Shown: positions 10,067 to 52,982 of the stretch, one piece after another
Position numbering within the stretch: the stretch's first letter is position 1
Layout of the letters: each line of letters starts with the position of its first letter
Virus record (IMG/VR): IMGVR_UViG_3300042691_044682
Location: 1-64,000 of that record
DNA: 64,000 nt
Reading direction: 5' to 3' (one strand)
From: a virus
Notes under the pieces: generated by a model
Databases searched by the model: none
What the model was told of the DNA's origin: nothing
The model's input: the letters and a program-made list of their open reading frames with translations, nothing else
Position numbers and translations under genes: made by a program

Positions 10067-10459
10067 TCATCGCCGCGCCCTCTTCTTCGCCGCCGGCTTC
10101 TTCCGTGCCCGGGGCTCTGCCGCCATGGCTAGGTCGTAGGCCGCCTGGGCCGCGGCCGCCATCGCGGGCGTGACACCGGAGATCTCCAGCGCCAGGCGGT
10201 CCTTCTCGACGAACGCGTCGAAGTCTTTCACCGCGAAGAGGAGGTTCTCCAGCACGACCTTCGCCCGCGGCTCGCCACGGCCGCGCGCGTCAATCGAGAA
10301 CTCGATCGCGACCACGCCGCGCAGCGGCACCCAGCCGGCAGGCTCGCCGCACCAGACCAAGACGGCGCTGTTAAACGCAGCACGCCCCCCGACCACGCGG
10401 ATGTCGCCCCGCTCGGGCGGCGGCGAGGGACGGGACGGGTCAAGGATGGTCGGGCTCAT
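10067..10459 (-). CDS. Hypothetical protein
   Basis: 130 aa ORF packed in the operon. Confidence 0.6.
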   Translation of the reverse strand: MSPTILDPSRPSPPPERGDIRVVGGRAAFNSAVLVWCGEPAGWVPLRGVVAIEFSIDARGRGEPRAKVVLENLLFAVKDFDAFVEKDRLALEISGVTPAMAAAAQAAYDLAMAAEPRARKKPAAKKRARR

Positions 10460-10462
10460 GGC

Positions 10463-10744
10463 TCAGCCCTCCGTCCGCGGGAACCACGGCGAGACCGGGT
10501 TCGCGATCGCGCGCACCAGGCGGATGGTGGCGTCCTCGTAGGCGGTGCGCGCCATGGCAAGGTCGCGGGCCTGCTGCGGGAAGAGATGCCCCACGGCGCG
10601 CAGGGCGGCTTCGACGCGCCCGTGCAGCTCCGCCGCCTTCGCCTCGAAGGCCTTGGCCTCGTTCATGAGTCGGCGGCAGAGCGCGTCGATCTCGGCCTGG
10701 GTCAGATCCCGGTAGCCGGTGATCTTGGTGTGCTGGTCCTTCAC
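10463..10744 (-). CDS. acb2: Acb2/Vs.4-like cyclic-nucleotide sponge (anti-CBASS)
   Basis: QHTKITGYRDLTQAEID...MN..K at the N-terminus and LAMART..E.A...LVRAIANP.S at the C-terminus match the Acb2 pattern; 93 aa. Confidence 0.8.
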   Translation of the reverse strand: MKDQHTKITGYRDLTQAEIDALCRRLMNEAKAFEAKAAELHGRVEAALRAVGHLFPQQARDLAMARTAYEDATIRLVRAIANPVSPWFPRTEG

Positions 10745-10746
10745 GC

Positions 10747-11241
10747 TCAGCCCTCCTTTGCCTTGGTGACGGCGACGGCCGCATCATCCACCGACACGAC
10801 CCCCAGGTTTTTCGCCAGCCCACCCCGAATGGCGCGCGGCGTGTCGCGGCGGGGGCAGATGCCCTGCCGGCAGATAACCTCGTACCCGTCCGGGCACGCG
10901 CAGTTGCCCCCAACCCGCGATATGGCCTGGGCAGAAGGCGGGCGCAGCAGGGCGCCGACCTGGATCTCGTCCCGCATGAGCCAGATGGCGTCGGCGGCGT
11001 GCTTCAGCGCACGCGCCACGGCCTCGGCCCGGCGGCCGTTCTCACCGCGCAGGGGCCGAAGCGGCTGCAGATCAGCCCGGATGGCGTCGATCAGGTGGGC
11101 GGCGTCGCCGAGCGCACAGCGCATCGCCACGGGGTCGTGGCCGACCTTCTCGCGGTACGCCCGCATGGCGGCCAGCGCCTGCTGCTCACGCTGGCCCACT
11201 TGGCGCTCGGCGGGAATCGGATCGTTCGGGTCGTCGCTCAT
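10747..11241 (-). CDS. Hypothetical protein
   Basis: ATG 11241 overlaps the upstream stop. Confidence 0.6.
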   Translation of the reverse strand: MSDDPNDPIPAERQVGQREQQALAAMRAYREKVGHDPVAMRCALGDAAHLIDAIRADLQPLRPLRGENGRRAEAVARALKHAADAIWLMRDEIQVGALLRPPSAQAISRVGGNCACPDGYEVICRQGICPRRDTPRAIRGGLAKNLGVVSVDDAAVAVTKAKEG

Positions 11242-11714
11242 CGCACCCCGAACCTCTGCTTCGCCGCGGCGAGCACCCCGTCCCTGGACGACGCGACGGC
11301 GCGATCGATCGTCACCAGCGAGGCCGGACGACGCGCCCAGGCCGGCAGCCTGATCAGCACCGCGGTCTTGCCCTGCAGCTTCGTCTCCACGGCTTCGGCG
11401 GCCTTGGTCTGCGTCACCTCCATCCAGGGAAAGAGCGGCGTGACGAGCCGCGCCGCCGCGGTGTGCAGGACGTCGCGCAGCTTGCGCCCCTGCGCATCCA
11501 TCTCCGTGGCGGCGCGGATCCGCAGCCAGCCCTCCTGCTCGCCCATGCCCTCCTCCACGACCACGCGCGTTTCGGCGGTCCAGCCGAGCGTGGTGAGGAT
11601 CATCCCCGTGAACAGGATCGAGACGCCGAAGCCCTTGTCCTTCTTCACAATGGACAGGCGCACCTGGTCCTGCGCCCGCCCGGGCAGTGGGAACTCGATC
11701 GGCGCCCAGGTCAT
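11238..11714 (-). CDS. Hypothetical protein
   Basis: ATGA-coupled ORF. Confidence 0.65.
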   Translation of the reverse strand: MTWAPIEFPLPGRAQDQVRLSIVKKDKGFGVSILFTGMILTTLGWTAETRVVVEEGMGEQEGWLRIRAATEMDAQGRKLRDVLHTAAARLVTPLFPWMEVTQTKAAEAVETKLQGKTAVLIRLPAWARRPASLVTIDRAVASSRDGVLAAAKQRFGVR

Positions 11715-12142
11715 GCCACCACCGCCGCCGCATAGGTCGCCGGGGCCCGCTTATCCACCGCGAAGCCTCGCGCGCGCAGCCACTCGATGACGTCCTCCTC
11801 GCGGTCCGACGAGAGGCGGTCGAAGAGCGCCAGCACCTGACCCAGCCGGCGATGAACGGCCGGGTAGTTGATATCGACGGACTCCCGCAGGCGGATCAGC
11901 TGCAAGAGGCGGTCGGTTTCCTTCTGGCGGTCCTGCATGCCCCGGCGATAGCCATCGGCTTGGCCACGATAACGCCGGGCTTCGTTTTCGGCCGCCTCCA
12001 GCGCGGCCCGAAGATCGGCCACCAGCACCCCGAGCGCCGTGATCCGCTCCGCCGCCCAGGCGGCGGCCTCGATCACGTCGTCGGAACCGCTCGCGACCCG
12101 CCCAGCGTCACAGAGCAGTTCCATCCTCATGTCGTCGGTCAT
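11711..12142 (-). CDS. Hypothetical coiled-coil protein
   Basis: ATGA-coupled ORF. Confidence 0.65.
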   Translation of the reverse strand: MTDDMRMELLCDAGRVASGSDDVIEAAAWAAERITALGVLVADLRAALEAAENEARRYRGQADGYRRGMQDRQKETDRLLQLIRLRESVDINYPAVHRRLGQVLALFDRLSSDREEDVIEWLRARGFAVDKRAPATYAAAVVA

Positions 12143-12432
12143 GTTCAGGATCCTCCTCGCTCGTTTCCTCTCCCGGCCCCGGCGCCTCGCCGAGGTCGAA
12201 GGTGATGGTCACCAGGACGCGGCGCCGCCAGCGCATGACGCCCGCCTGGCCGCCGCCGGCGACGACGTCGCCAAGGGTGCGCCAGCCGAGCGCCGGGCCG
12301 CACCAGACGTCGATGCCGGCGCCCAGGCCCTCGAGGTCGCCGCGGATGGTGCCCACGGGGCGCTCGACGTCCTCGCTGGGCGGCTGGAGCGGGGCGAACA
12401 GGTCATCGATCACTGCTCACCCCGCTCCCTGC

Positions 12433-12804
12433 CGGCGTTGCGGTGCCTTGCCCTGCGAAGCCCTGCCTTGCCTGCGATGCCTTGCGATGCCCAGCCTCGC
12501 CTCGCCTTGCCTTGCCTGCCCTGCCCGGCCACGCCAGACCCAGCCCCGCCAGGCCATGCCTGCCGTGCCCCGCCATGCCCGGCCACGCCGTGCGCCGCGG
12601 TGCCTCGCCTTGCCTGCGCTGCCATGCCCCGCCAAGCCCCGCCATGACTAGCCATGCCTGCGGTGCCCTGCCCCGCCACGCCAGACCCAGCGACGCCTTG
12701 CCTTGCCTGCCCTGCCCGGCCACGCCAGACCGTGCCGTGCCATGCCTTGCCTGCCATGCGGTGGCACGCCTCGCCTAGCCTCGCCTAGCCCGGCGCCGCC
12801 TGCG
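12433..12804 (-). ncRNA. GGY-NN pentamer array A (8 units; putative guide RNAs)
   Basis: 68 in-phase pentamers (mostly GGC-NN; GGT/CGC/GTC variants) in units of 9,8,9,8,10,8,8,8, each preceded by GGCA/CGCA. Confidence 0.85.
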
Positions 12805-13237
12805 TCGGACCTTCCACCAGCGCCCCCATTGCCGCCTCGATGTGCGGCGCCAGGGACGCGTAGCGGCGGTACCGCTCGAGGACGCGATCGACATCGAGCC
12901 GCATCCGCCGCAGGAGCACCTCCATGTCATCCTCGTCCTGCAGGACGGCGGTGATGGTCCGGTAGGTGTTCCTGGCGACGGTCACGTAGGCGCGGACGGG
13001 CACCAACGCATCGTCCGGCCGCGGCAGCATCGTCACCGCGGCGCGGATCACCCGCCCGGCCTCGATCAGCAGCAGCTTCGCCTGCGCGTCGTCCGCATCC
13101 CAGGTGAAGGCCGCGTGGAGCGCCGTGTTGGAGCTCCGCGCGAAGTCGATCACAGCCTCCTTGGTGAGGACGCCGCCGTTCATCTGGCGGACGACCTCGA
13201 GCTCGGCGAGCTGCGACTGGGTCAGCATCCTGCTCAC
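12785..13237 (-). CDS. Accessory protein coupled to the RAMP gene
   Basis: GTG overlaps the RAMP stop (GTGA); LTKEAVIDFAR...LHAAFTWD motif; 3' end overlaps array A. Confidence 0.8.
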   Translation of the reverse strand: MSRMLTQSQLAELEVVRQMNGGVLTKEAVIDFARSSNTALHAAFTWDADDAQAKLLLIEAGRVIRAAVTMLPRPDDALVPVRAYVTVARNTYRTITAVLQDEDDMEVLLRRMRLDVDRVLERYRRYASLAPHIEAAMGALVEGPTQAAPG

Positions 13238-13926
13238 GGCCGCTCCTGGATCCGGAAGCTGCCCCAGCCGACGCCGGCGCTGTTCTTGCTGTCCGCCCGG
13301 CCCTCGCCGATGCCGACCTGCTCGCCCACCCGCGACATCAGGTTCGCGATGTCGGTGGCGGTGAACTGGTCGGCGTCGAAGCGGACCGTCACGTCCATCT
13401 CCCACTCGCGCCACATGGGCCGGGTGCGGATGTCGATGACCCCCGTCGCGTTGCGGGTGGGCAGGTCGCTGCGGATGGGCTCGGGGCCGAGGATGCGCAC
13501 CAGCGGCGTGCCGTCGATCCGGTCGAAGCCGTGCGGCTCCACGAAGACCGACATCTTCGCCAGCGTCATCTTGAAGTTCACGAGCCGGCAGGCGGAGATC
13601 ATGCCGCTGCGGAAGGCCCCGGCATGGACGCCGTCCCAGCCATCGGTGGAGATGTGCCGGGCCTCGTTGAAGGCGGCGTCGAAGTCCTTCGCGTCGCGCT
13701 TCTTCTTGCCGCGGGCGGTGGACCCGGCGGCCTGCTTCTCCATCATCGCCTGCATGGCCTTCGCGGGGAACCGCGAGATCACCAGCGGCGCGGTGCCGAT
13801 GATGTGGAAGGTCACCATGCGCATGTTGGGCGCGGTGATGGTGATCGGCTGGGCGCCGTCGCCCAGCTCGTCGCCGCGCCCCTTGGCCGATCGCTTGGCC
13901 TTGGCGCCGGCAGTCATCCCATCCAT
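13234..13926 (-). CDS. Stand-alone Cas7/RAMP-like protein (Vipr-like)
   Basis: 230 aa; beta1 VTFHIIGTAPL, VHAGAFRSGM helix and C-terminal Gly-rich loop VGIGEGR...GVGWGSF; AAGGA RBS before ATG 13926. Confidence 0.8.
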   Translation of the reverse strand: MDGMTAGAKAKRSAKGRGDELGDGAQPITITAPNMRMVTFHIIGTAPLVISRFPAKAMQAMMEKQAAGSTARGKKKRDAKDFDAAFNEARHISTDGWDGVHAGAFRSGMISACRLVNFKMTLAKMSVFVEPHGFDRIDGTPLVRILGPEPIRSDLPTRNATGVIDIRTRPMWREWEMDVTVRFDADQFTATDIANLMSRVGEQVGIGEGRADSKNSAGVGWGSFRIQERP

Positions 13927-13980: not shown

Positions 13981-14014
13981 ACGGGGAGCGGGTTCCAGGC
14001 CCGCTCCCCGTTTT
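13981..14014. terminator. 12-bp perfect hairpin at the 3' end of array B
   Basis: ACGGGGAGCGGG-TTCCAGG-CCCGCTCCCCGT, followed by T's on the + strand. Confidence 0.65.
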
Positions 14015-14019
14015 CGTGC

Positions 14020-14319
14020 CGGCCTCGACCGGCCTGGCCTTGCCTCGCCGAGCCGAGCGAAGCCCGACCGCGCCTAGCCACGCCTGCCGTGCCCGGCCGT
14101 GCCTTGCCAGTCCACGCCCTGCCTGCCGTGCCCGGCCGCGCCAGTCCTCGCCCTTCCAGTCCTAGCCAAGCCTGCCGCGCCATGCCGAGCCCCGCCTGTC
14201 CGTGACTAGCCATGCCTGCGGTGCCTCGCCACGCCCTGCCACGCCTAACCAGGCCTCTACACGCCTCGCCTGCCGTGCCACGCCCGGCCTAGCCCCGCGA
14301 AACGCAGCCAGGCCCCGAC
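14020..14319 (-). ncRNA. GGY-NN pentamer array B (6 units; putative guide RNAs)
   Basis: 56 in-phase pentamers in units of 9,10,8,9,7,13 separated by GGCA/CGCA. Confidence 0.85.
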
Positions 14320-14360
14320 ACGGCTCAATGAAAGACATTTCAATGTGATCCTGTCCAGCG

Positions 14361-14386
14361 GAAAAATACATCTAGATGTGTTTTTC
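14361..14386. promoter_or_regulatory. AT-rich palindrome upstream of array B
   Basis: GAAAAATACATCTAGATGTGTTTTTC; 26 bp with one mismatched pair. Confidence 0.55.
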
Positions 14387-15233
14387 ACGCAGGGTCGATC
14401 GGATCCTCCGGCGGCGCCGGCACAGGCGGACGCTCCGTCCCGCCCTCCATGAACTCCACCAAGCGCTGGTACGCCTCCAGCTCCGCCGTCGGCATCTTCG
14501 CGAAGTCCAGCACCAGCTTCCGCTCCGTCTGGGTCACCTCGTGCTGGTGCTCGATCGGCGCCCCATCGACCCCCGACAGCTCCACCCGCTTCGGCCGATC
14601 CTCCATCCCCAGCGCCTTGCGCCGCTGCACCTGGATGCTCTCGGCCAGCCGCGTCAGCGCCGTGATCTTCGACGCGATCGCGTCCTTCCCATCCGCCAGC
14701 ACCTCCAGCACCTCGAGGTCGGGGTCCTTGTGGTCGGTCATCACGAACAGGAGCTTCGTCACGTGCCGGTGCAGCTGGTCGAACGTCTCGGACAGCTGGT
14801 CGATCCGCCGGAGGTCGCGCAGCACCCCCACCTTCATCACCTCGGCCACCCGGTCGATCGTCAGCTCCCGCGCCTCGGCCACCAGCGAGGTGGGCTGATT
14901 ATTTTCCTGATCTTCTGGGTCCGAGGGGTCCGAAAAATCGGACGAATGGTCCGAGCGCTCCTTGGGAGCCAGCTTTTCCCTGCGGTCCGAGGGGTCCGAG
15001 GGCTCGGACTTTGGGCGGCTGGCCTCGTCGTGTTCGAGGACGGCGCGGGCGACGGCGGCTGACTGTGCGGCGGCGAGGGCGGCGGGGGAACGGGCCCAGC
15101 CTTCGCTCACGGCGCGCTTGCGGATGGCCTTTTCGGAGACGTTGAACTTGGCGGCGAGAGCGAGGTTGGAGACTGTCCCCATCTCCCACTCGGCCCGGAG
15201 GGCGAGCCATTCCTCGGGGCTGAGGGCGGGCAT
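14385..15233 (-). CDS. terS: Terminase small subunit
   Basis: N-terminal HTH (LAAKFNVSEKAIRKRAVSEGW) and ELSGVDGAPIE motif. Confidence 0.8.
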   Translation of the reverse strand: MPALSPEEWLALRAEWEMGTVSNLALAAKFNVSEKAIRKRAVSEGWARSPAALAAAQSAAVARAVLEHDEASRPKSEPSDPSDRREKLAPKERSDHSSDFSDPSDPEDQENNQPTSLVAEARELTIDRVAEVMKVGVLRDLRRIDQLSETFDQLHRHVTKLLFVMTDHKDPDLEVLEVLADGKDAIASKITALTRLAESIQVQRRKALGMEDRPKRVELSGVDGAPIEHQHEVTQTERKLVLDFAKMPTAELEAYQRLVEFMEGGTERPPVPAPPEDPIDPA

Positions 15234-26731: not shown

Positions 26732-26825
26732 GCCCCCGGCGCCGAAACGCCGGGGGCCGCTGGAGCCTTGCAGTGCCGAGCCCAGCCAAGCCATGCGCTA
26801 CCCCGCCTGGCCTGCCGCACCGGCC
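26732..26825 (-). ncRNA. Orphan single-unit GGY-NN RNA (unit C)
   Basis: GGCA plus 10 pentamers (26812-26763), 10-bp hairpin at 26732-26757, promoter immediately upstream. Confidence 0.7.
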
Positions 26826-26828
26826 ACG

Positions 26829-26857
26829 AGAATCACACAGAACTAGGTTCCTCTCAA
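26829..26857 (-). promoter_or_regulatory. Sigma70-like promoter for the orphan unit
   Basis: TTGAGA-N17-GATTCT. Confidence 0.5.
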
Positions 26858-51898: not shown

Positions 51899-52982
51899 GG
51901 GGTCGGAAGCCTTCCGGATCGCCTACCAGCAGGCTGAGAGGTTCTTCGAGGGCGCCTTCGCTCCCCCTGGCTCTGGGCGCCACACCGTCGAGGACGTCAT
52001 CACCGCCTACCTCGACAGCGCCGACTATCGCCAGCTCGCGCCCAAGACCCGCGCCGACTACCGCCGTGTGCTGGACGGCTTCCGGACCCACTTCGGCGAC
52101 CTCCCGGCGGCTGCGCTCACCGAGCCCTGGATCGAGGAACTGCGGGCCAGGTACGCTCCCGACCACAGCCGCGGCGATGCCGGCCACGCGATCGAGTGGA
52201 ACGCGCTGCGCGCGCGCATGATCAGCGCCATGCGCCACTACCGGCGGGTTCACCCCGAGGCCGGTCTGGCGAACCCATGGGAGGCGTCCCGCCGCCTCAA
52301 GCCGCCGGTCAGCACCGCGCACCGGCCCTGGCCGCCGGAGGTGCTCCTGGCCGCGCTGCGCGCGGCGACGCCGGAGTTCCGCGCGCTGCTGGTCGGCTAC
52401 CTCCTCACGGCGCAGCGCGGCGGCGACGTGACCCGCTTCGGGCCGGAGCAGTACGACGCCGCCAGCCGGACGCTCACGCTGAGCCAGGGCAAGACCGAGG
52501 TGCCGCTGCGGATCCATGTGCCGGCGCCACTGGCGACCGCGATCGAGGCGATGCGCGGCCGCGGCGCGACCAGGCTATTCGTCACCCCGCGCGGCCGACC
52601 ATGGACGACAGCCAACGCGCAGGAGACGCTGGCGCGGCTGCTCGAGCAACTCGGCCTGGCGCGCTACACGCTGCACGGGCTCCGGGCGACAGGCCCGGTG
52701 GCGCTGAAGATGCTCGGCTTCGAGAACCGCGCCATCCGGGCGCTGACCGGGCACACCTCCGACCGCAACCTCGAGGTCTACCTGCGCGGCGTGGAGCACT
52801 ACCCGCTCGCGCGCGAGGCGCAGGAAGCGCTCGCCGGCGTCTTCGGGCCAGTGATCGAGGACGCGCTCGCCGGATCCAACGAGCGCCGATTCAGCGGTGT
52901 GACCGGGCGCGCGGCCCGCGCAGGTGGCAAATCAGTGGCAAATGACAAATCTGGGCGGCGGGAGAAGGCTCTAAGTGATTGA
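51759..52982 (+). CDS. int: Tyrosine integrase
   Basis: TAQRGGD (R), QGKT (K), LHGLR (H..R), TGH and VY (Y). Confidence 0.92.
   Translation: MRSGKRSSALRGSPARPAYVQAVQAASGATYLYYRRNGRRIPLPGPEGSEAFRIAYQQAERFFEGAFAPPGSGRHTVEDVITAYLDSADYRQLAPKTRADYRRVLDGFRTHFGDLPAAALTEPWIEELRARYAPDHSRGDAGHAIEWNALRARMISAMRHYRRVHPEAGLANPWEASRRLKPPVSTAHRPWPPEVLLAALRAATPEFRALLVGYLLTAQRGGDVTRFGPEQYDAASRTLTLSQGKTEVPLRIHVPAPLATAIEAMRGRGATRLFVTPRGRPWTTANAQETLARLLEQLGLARYTLHGLRATGPVALKMLGFENRAIRALTGHTSDRNLEVYLRGVEHYPLAREAQEALAGVFGPVIEDALAGSNERRFSGVTGRAARAGGKSVANDKSGRREKALSD
52924..52943 (+). repeat. Putative Int arm-type sites
   Basis: GTGGCAAAT twice, about 50 bp from the att core. Confidence 0.5.

What the first reader, a model, noticed from the sequence alone, without database searches (positions are those of the whole stretch)
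14020..14084. Unit B6 decodes to the active-site motif of large serine recombinases when every third base is skipped
Seen: NN series GT TA GC CG TT TC TC GA AA CA CG GA CG. Read as NN-x codons this gives V-Y-A-R-(F/L)-S-S-(D/E)-(N/K)-(Q/H)-R-(D/E)-R, e.g. VYARFSSDNQRDR. Known: serine recombinases begin with Y-A-R-x-S-(S/T)-x-x-Q, which contains the catalytic Ser. Inference: the guide pairs with codon positions 1-2 and skips the wobble base, so synonymous mutation cannot escape it, and it aims at the 5' end of serine-integrase genes. This phage uses a tyrosine integrase and no serine recombinase is visible in the window, so the target would be a competing element.
Basis: partly seen in the sequence, partly recalled or inferred. 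Interest (0 to 1): 0.95.

Follow-up and report, generated by a model that had tools for sequence, protein, structure and literature searches.

The report
VIPR guide against serine recombinase genes
This 65-base repeat unit is a guide RNA of a phage VIPR system (a CRISPR-related DNA silencer described in 2026 preprints), and it spells the catalytic-site codons of large serine recombinase genes carried by other mobile elements, making it a well-supported new example of a published kind of weapon.

Summary

The locus is a VIPR system with four parts: a Cas7-like vipr gene, whose only match among PDB sequences is the SUSP1 Vipr protein; a conserved partner gene; and two staggered guide arrays. The published VIPR rule is that NN pairs with the target and one base, the wobble base, is skipped.

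Evidence for the target:
- A 10-NN core with a 1-nt skip has 29 exact hits in IMG/VR. All 29 are in frame on the YARFSS..QR motif of serine recombinases.
- The 0-nt skip, the 2-nt skip and the reversed NN order each give 0 hits.
- The first 12 NN match perfectly (24/24) at codons 14-25 of a 575-aa large serine recombinase gene in two Acetobacteraceae genomes and one metagenome contig.
- The 13th NN never matches. It lies in a terminal motif (GCCGGCA) shared by both arrays.
- Guides B1 (GLCFGYRV) and B4 (LYLRDLA) hit the same gene family at fixed in-frame spacing.
- The phage record has no serine recombinase of its own.

Not shown: expression of the guide, silencing, the phage's host, and the nature of the target element.

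SUSP1 vrRNA4 is a published precedent, and this scan has made similar finds on other DNA. The finding is a new member of a known kind.

The parts
14025..14084 (-). Guide portion of unit B6: 12 GGY-NN pentamers. The NN series spells V Y A R F/L S S D/E N/K Q/H R D/E and has the same sense as the target's coding strand.
   Evidence: 24/24 NN bases match codons 14-25 of the gene L102:9905-11629.
14017..14024 (-). Array-terminal motif (G)GCCGGCA.
   Evidence: Alignment. The 13-NN pattern has no exact match in the viral, genome or metagenome collections.
13982..14010 (-). 12-bp G+C-rich hairpin closing array B, directly upstream of vipr. A similar GGGAGCGGG-stem hairpin closes array A.
   Evidence: minimum free energy -33.4 kcal/mol, z = -2.2; array A end z = -4.9.
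14020..14319 (-). Array B: six abutting guide units, B1-B6, each ending in a 4-base GGCA/CGCA step that shifts the phase by one base (a staggered array).
   Evidence: The architecture matches the 'staggered vrRNA arrays' described in the fig. S18 legend of 10.64898/2026.04.26.720920.
14275..14319 (-). Unit B1. Its first 8 NN spell G L C/W F/L G Y R V, the start of the Recombinase domain of the same gene family, 142 codons after the B6 site.
   Evidence: 15/16 at DNA level in G382. At protein level it scores 16/16 in P0141, P0154 and P0189, and 0/200 shuffles reach that score. Joint B6+B1 pattern.
14128..14172 (-). Unit B4. Its first 7 NN spell F/L Y L R/S D/E L A, matching the same gene family 117 codons after the B6 site.
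   Evidence: At protein level it scores 14/14, and 0/200 shuffles reach that score. The best DNA-level score is 13/14, in L121.
13234..13926 (-). vipr gene (230 aa), a Cas7/RAMP-like protein.
   Evidence: Its only PDB sequence match is the SUSP1 Vipr protein, 36pp_D (E 0.011 for the single sequence; E 1.7e-4 for the profile). The AF2 model has pLDDT 81. Foldseek finds Csm3/Cmr4/Cas7-11 folds with probability 0.94-1.00. phrog_4652.
12785..13237 (-). Partner (vap-like) gene, 150 aa. Its start overlaps the vipr stop.
   Evidence: phrog_15946. A homologue lies directly downstream of vipr in 38 of 66 related loci.
12433..12804 (-). Array A: eight further guide units downstream of the partner gene. 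None matches the serine recombinase family.

Best explanation
B6 is the last guide unit of a staggered vrRNA array in a phage VIPR system. It is transcribed on the minus strand together with vipr. Vipr protomers would bind the GGY anchors and present the 12 NN dinucleotides. By the published 1-nt-skip rule these pair with the template strand of a 36-bp stretch of DNA, touching only codon positions 1 and 2. That stretch is codons about 14-25 of a large serine recombinase gene and encodes VYARFSS(D/E)NQRD, which includes the catalytic Arg and Ser. The likely result is transcriptional silencing near the 5' end of the recombinase gene of a rival integrated element in an Acetobacteraceae-type host, so that the element cannot excise or integrate. 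Synonymous changes in the target cannot break the match. Units B1 and B4 of the same array aim at two further conserved motifs of the same gene family. Shown here: the anatomy of the locus, the family membership of vipr, the sequence matches and their controls, and the absence of a self target in the phage record. Inferred: expression and processing of the unit, DNA binding, silencing, and the biology of the target element.
For: VIPR membership. GGY-NN runs sit on the vipr strand in 55 of 66 related loci, and none sits on the other strand. Published rule and precedent. Target match: 29/29 in-frame serine recombinase hits for the 10-NN core, against 0 for the 0-nt skip, 2-nt skip and reversed order. 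There are 6/6 metagenome hits for the 12-NN pattern. In the order of Roseococcus, 5 of 401 genomes have a hit, against 0 for the control. The match is 24/24 at DNA level in G382, G300 and L110. The G382 gene carries Resolvase, Recombinase and Zn_ribbon_recom domains. The joint B6+B1 pattern with a fixed 391-nt gap has 1 mismatch in 40 bases in G382 and none in the backwards controls. B6, B1 and B4 each reach the maximum score on this protein family with 0/200 shuffles doing so, while the other 11 guides do not differ from their shuffles. The target family is common and multi-copy in the family searched: 32 of 151 genomes carry it, with up to 7 copies each. Named homologues are Sediminicoccus, Humitalea, Roseomonas and Siccirubricoccus. 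The closest cellular Vipr homologue is from Roseococcus. The own record holds no match to the guide and no Resolvase domain. B6 is identical in a contig from an independent freshwater study (record 8).
Against: No single sequenced gene matches B6, B1 and B4 all perfectly. The best is 51/54 bases at DNA level in G382, so the true target is unsampled or the guides cover several variants. The phage's host is inferred only from G+C content and from the nearest cellular Vipr homologue. No related prophage was found in 151 genomes of that family. Two of the 12 anchors in the guide are not GGY (CGC and GTC), and in SUSP1 changes to anchors abolished silencing. The unit lacks the long structured tail of SUSP1-type vrRNAs, so the rules measured on SUSP1 may not transfer exactly. 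The phage record is 83% complete by CheckV's estimate, so an own serine recombinase in the missing part is not excluded.
Confidence: 0.85

Rival explanations
1. Chance: the NN series is arbitrary and merely happens to decode to a well-known motif.
For: The motif was recognised after the fact by a reader who had many units and many known motifs to choose from.
Against: A 24-base exact match occurs in three independent high-G+C recombinase genes and six metagenome contigs, always in frame at the same motif. The skip-rule, reversed-order and backwards controls all give 0 hits. Two sister guides hit the same gene family at constant in-frame spacing.
Confidence: 0.01
2. Self- or host-regulation rather than conflict: the guide controls a serine recombinase that the phage itself carries in the unsampled part of its genome, or a host-element recombinase whose activity the phage needs to time.
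For: The record is 83% complete. VIPR acts as a programmable repressor, so a regulatory use is conceivable.
Against: The 92-kb record has no Resolvase domain and no match to the guide, and it has a tyrosine integrase. The published surveys found no self-targeting at 80% or more NN match. The published precedent is silencing of a satellite's recombinase.
Confidence: 0.07
3. Relic or inactive unit: B6 was acquired by recombination between arrays and is no longer used. It may have degenerate anchors, no processing, or no target left in the current host range.
For: It has two non-GGY anchors. No perfect 13-NN target was found in any collection. The arrays show shared tracts suggesting recombination. 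No RNA data could be obtained.
Against: The 12 guide NN are perfectly preserved relative to living targets. The 13th NN is explained by the shared terminal motif. The unit is identical in an independent sample. Internal anchor degeneracy is described as frequent in natural vrRNAs.
Confidence: 0.07

Closest known systems
VIPR systems (Vipr + vrRNA + Vap), bioRxiv 10.64898/2026.04.26.720920 and 10.64898/2026.04.26.720927
   Same: A lone RAMP/Cas7-like protein, a small partner gene, arrays of GGY-NN pentamers on the same strand, phage-borne, the NN + 1-nt-skip code with the skipped base on the wobble position, and targets in coding sequences of other mobile elements.
   Different: The Vipr protein here is only remotely similar to SUSP1 Vipr (profile E 1.7e-4 over about 45 residues). 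Units abut with a one-base phase shift (the 'staggered' architecture of fig. S18) rather than each carrying a roughly 40-nt structured tail. Only the last unit of each array is followed by a hairpin. The setting is a 70% G+C phage, probably of Alphaproteobacteria. Which of the seven published types this is was not determined.
SUSP1 vrRNA4 against the F5 satellite excision recombinase, bioRxiv 10.64898/2026.10.15.759431
   Same: A phage VIPR guide aimed, wobble-aligned, at active-site codons of a recombinase of a rival integrated element, so that escape would require damaging the enzyme. The preprint's supplementary legend places the footprint just upstream of the catalytic serine.
   Different: The footprint here is 36 bp (12 NN), against an 18-bp footprint for vrRNA4. 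It covers the catalytic Arg-x-Ser itself at the very N-terminus (codons 14-25), against residues 79-84. Two more guides of the same array hit the same gene family. The target element here is uncharacterised, and nothing has been tested experimentally.
Class 1 CRISPR crRNA-Cas7 backbone (type I / III)
   Same: A RAMP-fold protein polymerises on a guide RNA and periodically interrupts pairing. The model's best fold matches are Csm3, Cmr4 and Cas7-11.
   Different: There are no CRISPR repeats. No cas genes were looked for here. The period is 5 nt with only 2 of 5 bases read, against 5 of 6 in CRISPR. The target is read with gaps. The published output is silencing, not cleavage.

Membership tests
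VIPR system | Vipr protein: a minimal RAMP (RRM core, glycine-rich loop, thumb) related to the published Viprs | tested here: met
   The only PDB sequence match is the SUSP1 Vipr protein, 36pp_D, aligned across the C-terminal G-loop region. The AF2 model has pLDDT 81. Foldseek gives top hits to Csm3, Cmr4 and Cas7-11 with probability 0.94-1.00. Similarity to SUSP1 Vipr is weak and local. The thumb was not inspected.
VIPR system | vrRNA arrays of alternating GGY / NN pentamers next to vipr, on its strand | tested here: met
   Arrays A and B flank the vipr-partner operon. In 55 of 66 loci encoding homologues, all 245 runs lie on the vipr strand. Such runs are rare in other high-G+C DNA: 1 run in 182 kb.
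VIPR system | Adjacent accessory (vap) gene | tested here: inconclusive
   A conserved 150-aa partner gene follows vipr in 38 of 66 loci and belongs to phrog_15946. It has no Pfam match. It was not compared with vap1-6.
VIPR system | Targets obey the 1-nt-skip rule, with skipped bases on wobble positions | tested here: met
   The 1-nt skip gives 29 hits, all in frame. The 0-nt and 2-nt skips give 0 hits.
VIPR system | vrRNA is expressed, processed and bound by Vipr, and represses its target | not testable with these tools
   No RNA run holds the locus. Bench work is needed.
VIPR staggered-array subtype (fig. S18) | Adjacent vrRNAs overlap by 1 nt, with no spacer or tail between units | tested here: met
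   Every unit ends in GGCA/CGCA followed directly by the next GGC, a 4-base step that equals a pentamer sharing its last base with the next unit. It was compared only with the figure legend text, because figures are not held.
Large serine recombinase (the target) | N-terminal Resolvase catalytic domain with the Y-x-R-x-S nucleophile motif, plus Recombinase and zinc-ribbon domains | tested here: met
   L102:9905-11629 matches PF00239 (E 2e-25, from residue 12), PF07508 and PF13408. The B6 footprint covers residues 14-25. Assigning the catalytic Ser to the first S of the YARFSS motif rests on textbook knowledge of gamma-delta resolvase Ser10.

The most novel reading that the evidence does not exclude
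B6 works as a family-level guide rather than an element-specific one. Because it reads only codon positions 1-2 of an almost universal catalytic motif, one 36-bp guide reaches at least 83% NN match on 23 of 32 large serine recombinase loci taken from the putative host family (30 from a 151-genome sample, plus two fetched earlier). On the full 13-NN series it reaches 85-92% even on recombinases of unrelated low-G+C phages. Together with similar anti-recombinase guides noted in unrelated VIPR phages elsewhere in this scan (not checked here), this would mean that elements mobilised by serine recombinases are a principal and recurrent enemy of VIPR-bearing phages across bacterial phyla. It would also mean that VIPR arrays evolve towards protein-motif-level recognition, in effect recognising a protein family through its DNA.
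Probability: 0.3. Interest if true: 0.65.

Novelty: new member of a known kind. Interest (0 to 1): 0.45.

Why it matters
It gives an independent natural example, far from the E. coli model both in sequence and in host lineage, of a VIPR guide aimed at the catalytic codons of a rival element's serine recombinase. The footprint is long and perfectly matched, and two sister guides hit the same gene family. That supports two general points. Wobble-skipping recognition is exploited to hit sites that cannot mutate without damaging the enzyme. Recombinases that mobilise rival elements are a recurrent target. It also supplies concrete, testable guide-target pairs for a staggered-array VIPR system, a type for which no guide-target pair or experiment is described in the parts of the 2026 preprints read here.

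Tried and rejected
The exact 13-NN pattern was searched in viral contigs, in 185,579 species genomes and in metagenome contigs, and found nothing. The 3' 11-NN pattern in viral contigs also found nothing. This led to re-reading the 13th NN as part of the terminal motif.

No match to the guide was found in the window or in the phage's own record.

Sequencing runs: no RNA holder is listed. Laying contigs of four DNA runs showed only that B6 is unchanged in X3 and nearly unchanged in X4. The many joints in that output come from other repeat arrays.

The consensus scan found no promoter or terminator at the arrays.

Host: a 19.7-kb piece of the phage found no related prophage in 151 Acetobacteraceae-type genomes. 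The window holds no tRNA genes. Cluster look-ups gave no organism names.

Target element: Pfam and PHROG scans of the neighbours of the recombinase in G382, G300 and L110 showed no phage or satellite marker genes. In G300 they showed two tyrosine-recombinase-like genes, a dynamin-like GTPase and a low-G+C island. The kind of element is therefore undetermined.

No vrRNA-like arrays lie in the recombinase loci, apart from one short run in L119.

Guides B2, B3, B5 and A1-A8 show no significant match to the recombinase family, and their targets were not pursued.

DNA-level checks therefore used genome-search loci instead of the best protein hits P0154, P0141 and P0129.

Full report
**1. What is there.**
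The window has about 70% G+C. It holds two intergenic arrays in which GCC recurs every 5 bases on the + strand, at 12433-12804 and 14020-14319. There are no others of that density. On the minus strand these are GGY-NN pentamers. Parsing gives eight units in array A and six in array B. Each unit has 7-13 pentamers and ends in a 4-base GGCA/CGCA step that shifts the phase by one. B6 is the last unit of array B, running from 14084 down to 14020. Its anchors are 11 GGY plus one CGC and one GTC.

**2. What system it belongs to.**
Between the arrays lie two overlapping minus-strand genes.

- The 230-aa product of 13234-13926 has no Pfam match and belongs to phrog_4652.
- Its only hit among all PDB chain sequences is "SUSP1 Vipr protein", 36pp_D. 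The E-value is 0.011 for the single sequence and 1.7e-4 for a 29-sequence profile. The alignment runs across the glycine-rich C-terminal segment.
- An AlphaFold2 model (pLDDT 81) finds Csm3, Cmr4 and Cas7-11 folds with probability 0.94-1.00.
- Of 66 loci in species genomes that encode homologues, 55 carry GGY-NN runs. All 245 of these runs are on the vipr strand.
- 38 of the 66 loci carry a homologue of the 150-aa partner gene directly downstream.
- Such runs are rare in other high-G+C DNA: one short run in 182 kb.

This is the VIPR system described in three 2026 preprints. In that system Vipr polymerises on a vrRNA, hides each GGY and presents each NN. The NNs pair with double-stranded DNA while skipping one base per dinucleotide. 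In natural targets the skipped base falls on the wobble position, and the outcome is transcriptional silencing of rival mobile elements. The abutting, phase-shifted units here fit the preprint's "staggered arrays" with a 1-nt overlap (fig. S18 legend).

I then checked the papers and the family membership myself.

**3. Is the decoded motif real?**
I applied the published rule to the ten central NN (Y A R F S S D N Q R).

| Pattern tested on IMG/VR viral contigs | Exact hits |
|---|---|
| 10 NN, 1-nt skip | 29 contigs |
| 10 NN, 0-nt skip | 0 |
| 10 NN, 2-nt skip | 0 |
| 10 NN in reversed order, 1-nt skip | 0 |

All 29 hits are in frame, at the N-terminus of a serine recombinase reading [V/I/L/A]YARFSS[D/E][N/K]QR. 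These hits come from phages of 37-54% G+C and match 22-24 of the 26 NN bases. They show what the guide spells, but they are not plausible targets for a 70% G+C phage.

**4. Targets in a plausible host range.**
The closest cellular Vipr homologue is from Roseococcus sp. SDR (64% identity).

- In 401 genomes of its order, the 13-NN pattern with up to 3 mismatches hit 5 genomes. The backwards control hit none.
- The two best hits (G300 and G382) differ only in the 13th NN.
- The 12-NN pattern has six exact metagenome hits. All are serine recombinase N-termini, and one (L110) has 68% G+C and is of the same subfamily.
- The full 13-NN pattern has no exact match anywhere.
- The 13th pentamer lies in the motif GCCGGCA, followed by a GGGAGCGGG-stem hairpin, with which both arrays end. 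I conclude it is a terminal handle and that the guide is 12 NN long.
- In G382 the guide matches codons 14-25 (VYARFSSENQRD) of a 575-aa gene at 24/24 bases. That gene carries Resolvase, Recombinase and Zn_ribbon_recom domains.
- The guide has the sense of the coding strand. It would therefore pair with the template DNA strand and cannot pair with the mRNA.

**5. Convergence of sister guides.**
Scanning the fetched loci with all 14 guides showed a consistent pattern.

- B1's best match lies exactly 426 nt (142 codons, in frame) downstream of the B6 site in three different genes.
- B4's best in-frame match within the gene lies 351 nt (117 codons, in frame) downstream in the same three genes.
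- A joint B6(12 NN) + 391-nt gap + B1(8 NN) pattern has 1 mismatch in 40 bases in G382 and 3 in G243. The backwards controls have none across 251 genomes.
- On 120 homologues from the protein collection (named ones are Sediminicoccus, Humitalea, Roseomonas, Siccirubricoccus, Sabulicella and Falsiroseomonas), B6, B1 (GLCFGYRV) and B4 (LYLRDLA) each reach the maximum possible score. None of 200 NN-order shuffles does. The other 11 guides are indistinguishable from their shuffles.
- At DNA level, on 32 loci, B6 scores 24/24 in three loci and at least 20/24 in 23. B1 peaks at 15/16 and B4 at 13/14.
- No sequenced gene is perfect for all three guides. The best is G382, with 51 of 54 bases.

The terminal one or two NN of B1 and B4 (AC; CG AC) do not match. 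Like B6's 13th NN, they fall in the semi-constant ends of the units.

**6. Self versus non-self, and the target element.**
The phage's 92-kb record (83% complete by CheckV's estimate) contains no match to the guide. It has no Resolvase domain and one tyrosine integrase at 52380-52787.

The target family is frequent and multi-copy in the family searched. It occurs in 32 of 151 genomes, with up to 7 copies each, and many copies sit at contig ends. This is what one expects of mobile elements. In G300 the gene sits beside two tyrosine-recombinase-like genes, a dynamin-like GTPase and a 55-58% G+C island in a roughly 69% G+C genome. No phage or satellite marker genes were recognised, so the type of element is open.

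**7. Limits.**
- No RNA data exist for the locus, so expression, processing, binding and silencing are inferred from the SUSP1 work.
- The host is inferred. No related prophage was found in 151 genomes.

**8. Comparison and novelty.**
Two things are already in the 2026 preprints. One is the code: NN plus one skipped wobble base. The other is the strategy of aiming at active-site codons of a rival's recombinase so that it cannot escape, shown for SUSP1 vrRNA4 against the F5 satellite recombinase with experimental evidence that excision is blocked.

Other agents of this scan have noted anti-recombinase VIPR guides on other DNA. I did not check those.

What this case adds:
- a distant Vipr lineage with staggered arrays, in a high-G+C phage that probably infects Alphaproteobacteria;
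- a 36-bp perfect footprint covering the catalytic Arg-x-Ser itself;
- three guides of one array tiling one gene family;
- evidence that the last pentamer(s) of a unit serve as a handle and not as guide.

**Verdict.** It is a new member of a known kind, of moderate interest.

Noticed in passing
window 14275-14319 and 14128-14172 (minus strand): Units B1 and B4 of the same array spell GLCFGYRV and LYLRDLA. These are conserved motifs 142 and 117 codons downstream of the B6 site in the same recombinase family. Three of the six B units therefore tile one gene family.
   Followed up: yes
window 12433-12804 and 14085-14274: The targets of the other 11 guides (A1-A8, B2, B3, B5) are unknown. None matches the serine recombinase family better than shuffled controls do.
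   Followed up: partly
window 14017-14024 and 12433-12440, and the unit ends throughout both arrays: Unit ends are semi-constant: often GGCCG GGCA[C/G] GGCA, and GCCGGCA plus a hairpin at the array ends. These terminal NN do not match targets. This suggests a 3' handle inside the pentamer register, which would matter for anyone decoding staggered arrays.
   Followed up: partly
window 14084-14075, 14172-14163, 14216-14207 and the start of unit A4 in array A: Four of the 14 units (B3, B4, B6, A4) begin GGC-NT GGC-TA. In B4 and B6 these NN do match the target, so it is unclear whether this reflects a preference for the 5' end or shared ancestry of the units.
   Followed up: no
window 26732-26857 (minus strand): A solitary unit of about 10 GGY-NN pentamers lies 12 kb from the vipr gene. 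It is preceded by GGCA and followed by a G+C-rich hairpin with a T run, which looks like an intrinsic terminator. It may be a stand-alone vrRNA. Its target was not sought.
   Followed up: partly
window 14385-15233 (minus strand): The gene upstream of array B matches a terminase small subunit family only at its N-terminus (phrog_1206, residues 4-71). The VIPR module therefore sits next to the packaging genes.
   Followed up: no
window 14330-14380: An AT-rich stretch with a near-perfect palindrome (ACATCTAGATGT flanked by A and T runs) lies immediately upstream of array B on the minus strand. It could be a promoter or operator region for the array. The sigma-70 consensus scan did not match it.
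   Followed up: no
L101 (G300, Sediminicoccus rosea) 8325-13062: The target-type serine recombinase gene is preceded on the same strand by two tyrosine-recombinase-like genes (612 and 364 aa). It borders a 55-58% G+C island that also holds a dynamin-like GTPase with a PLD-like C-terminal domain. This is an unusual three-recombinase module.
   Followed up: partly
L119 3112-3146 (G239:C9): A single run of 7 GGY-NN pentamers lies next to a truncated copy of the target recombinase. It is the only such run in 182 kb of recombinase loci. It may be chance, or a solo vrRNA of the kind that satellites use as decoys.
   Followed up: no
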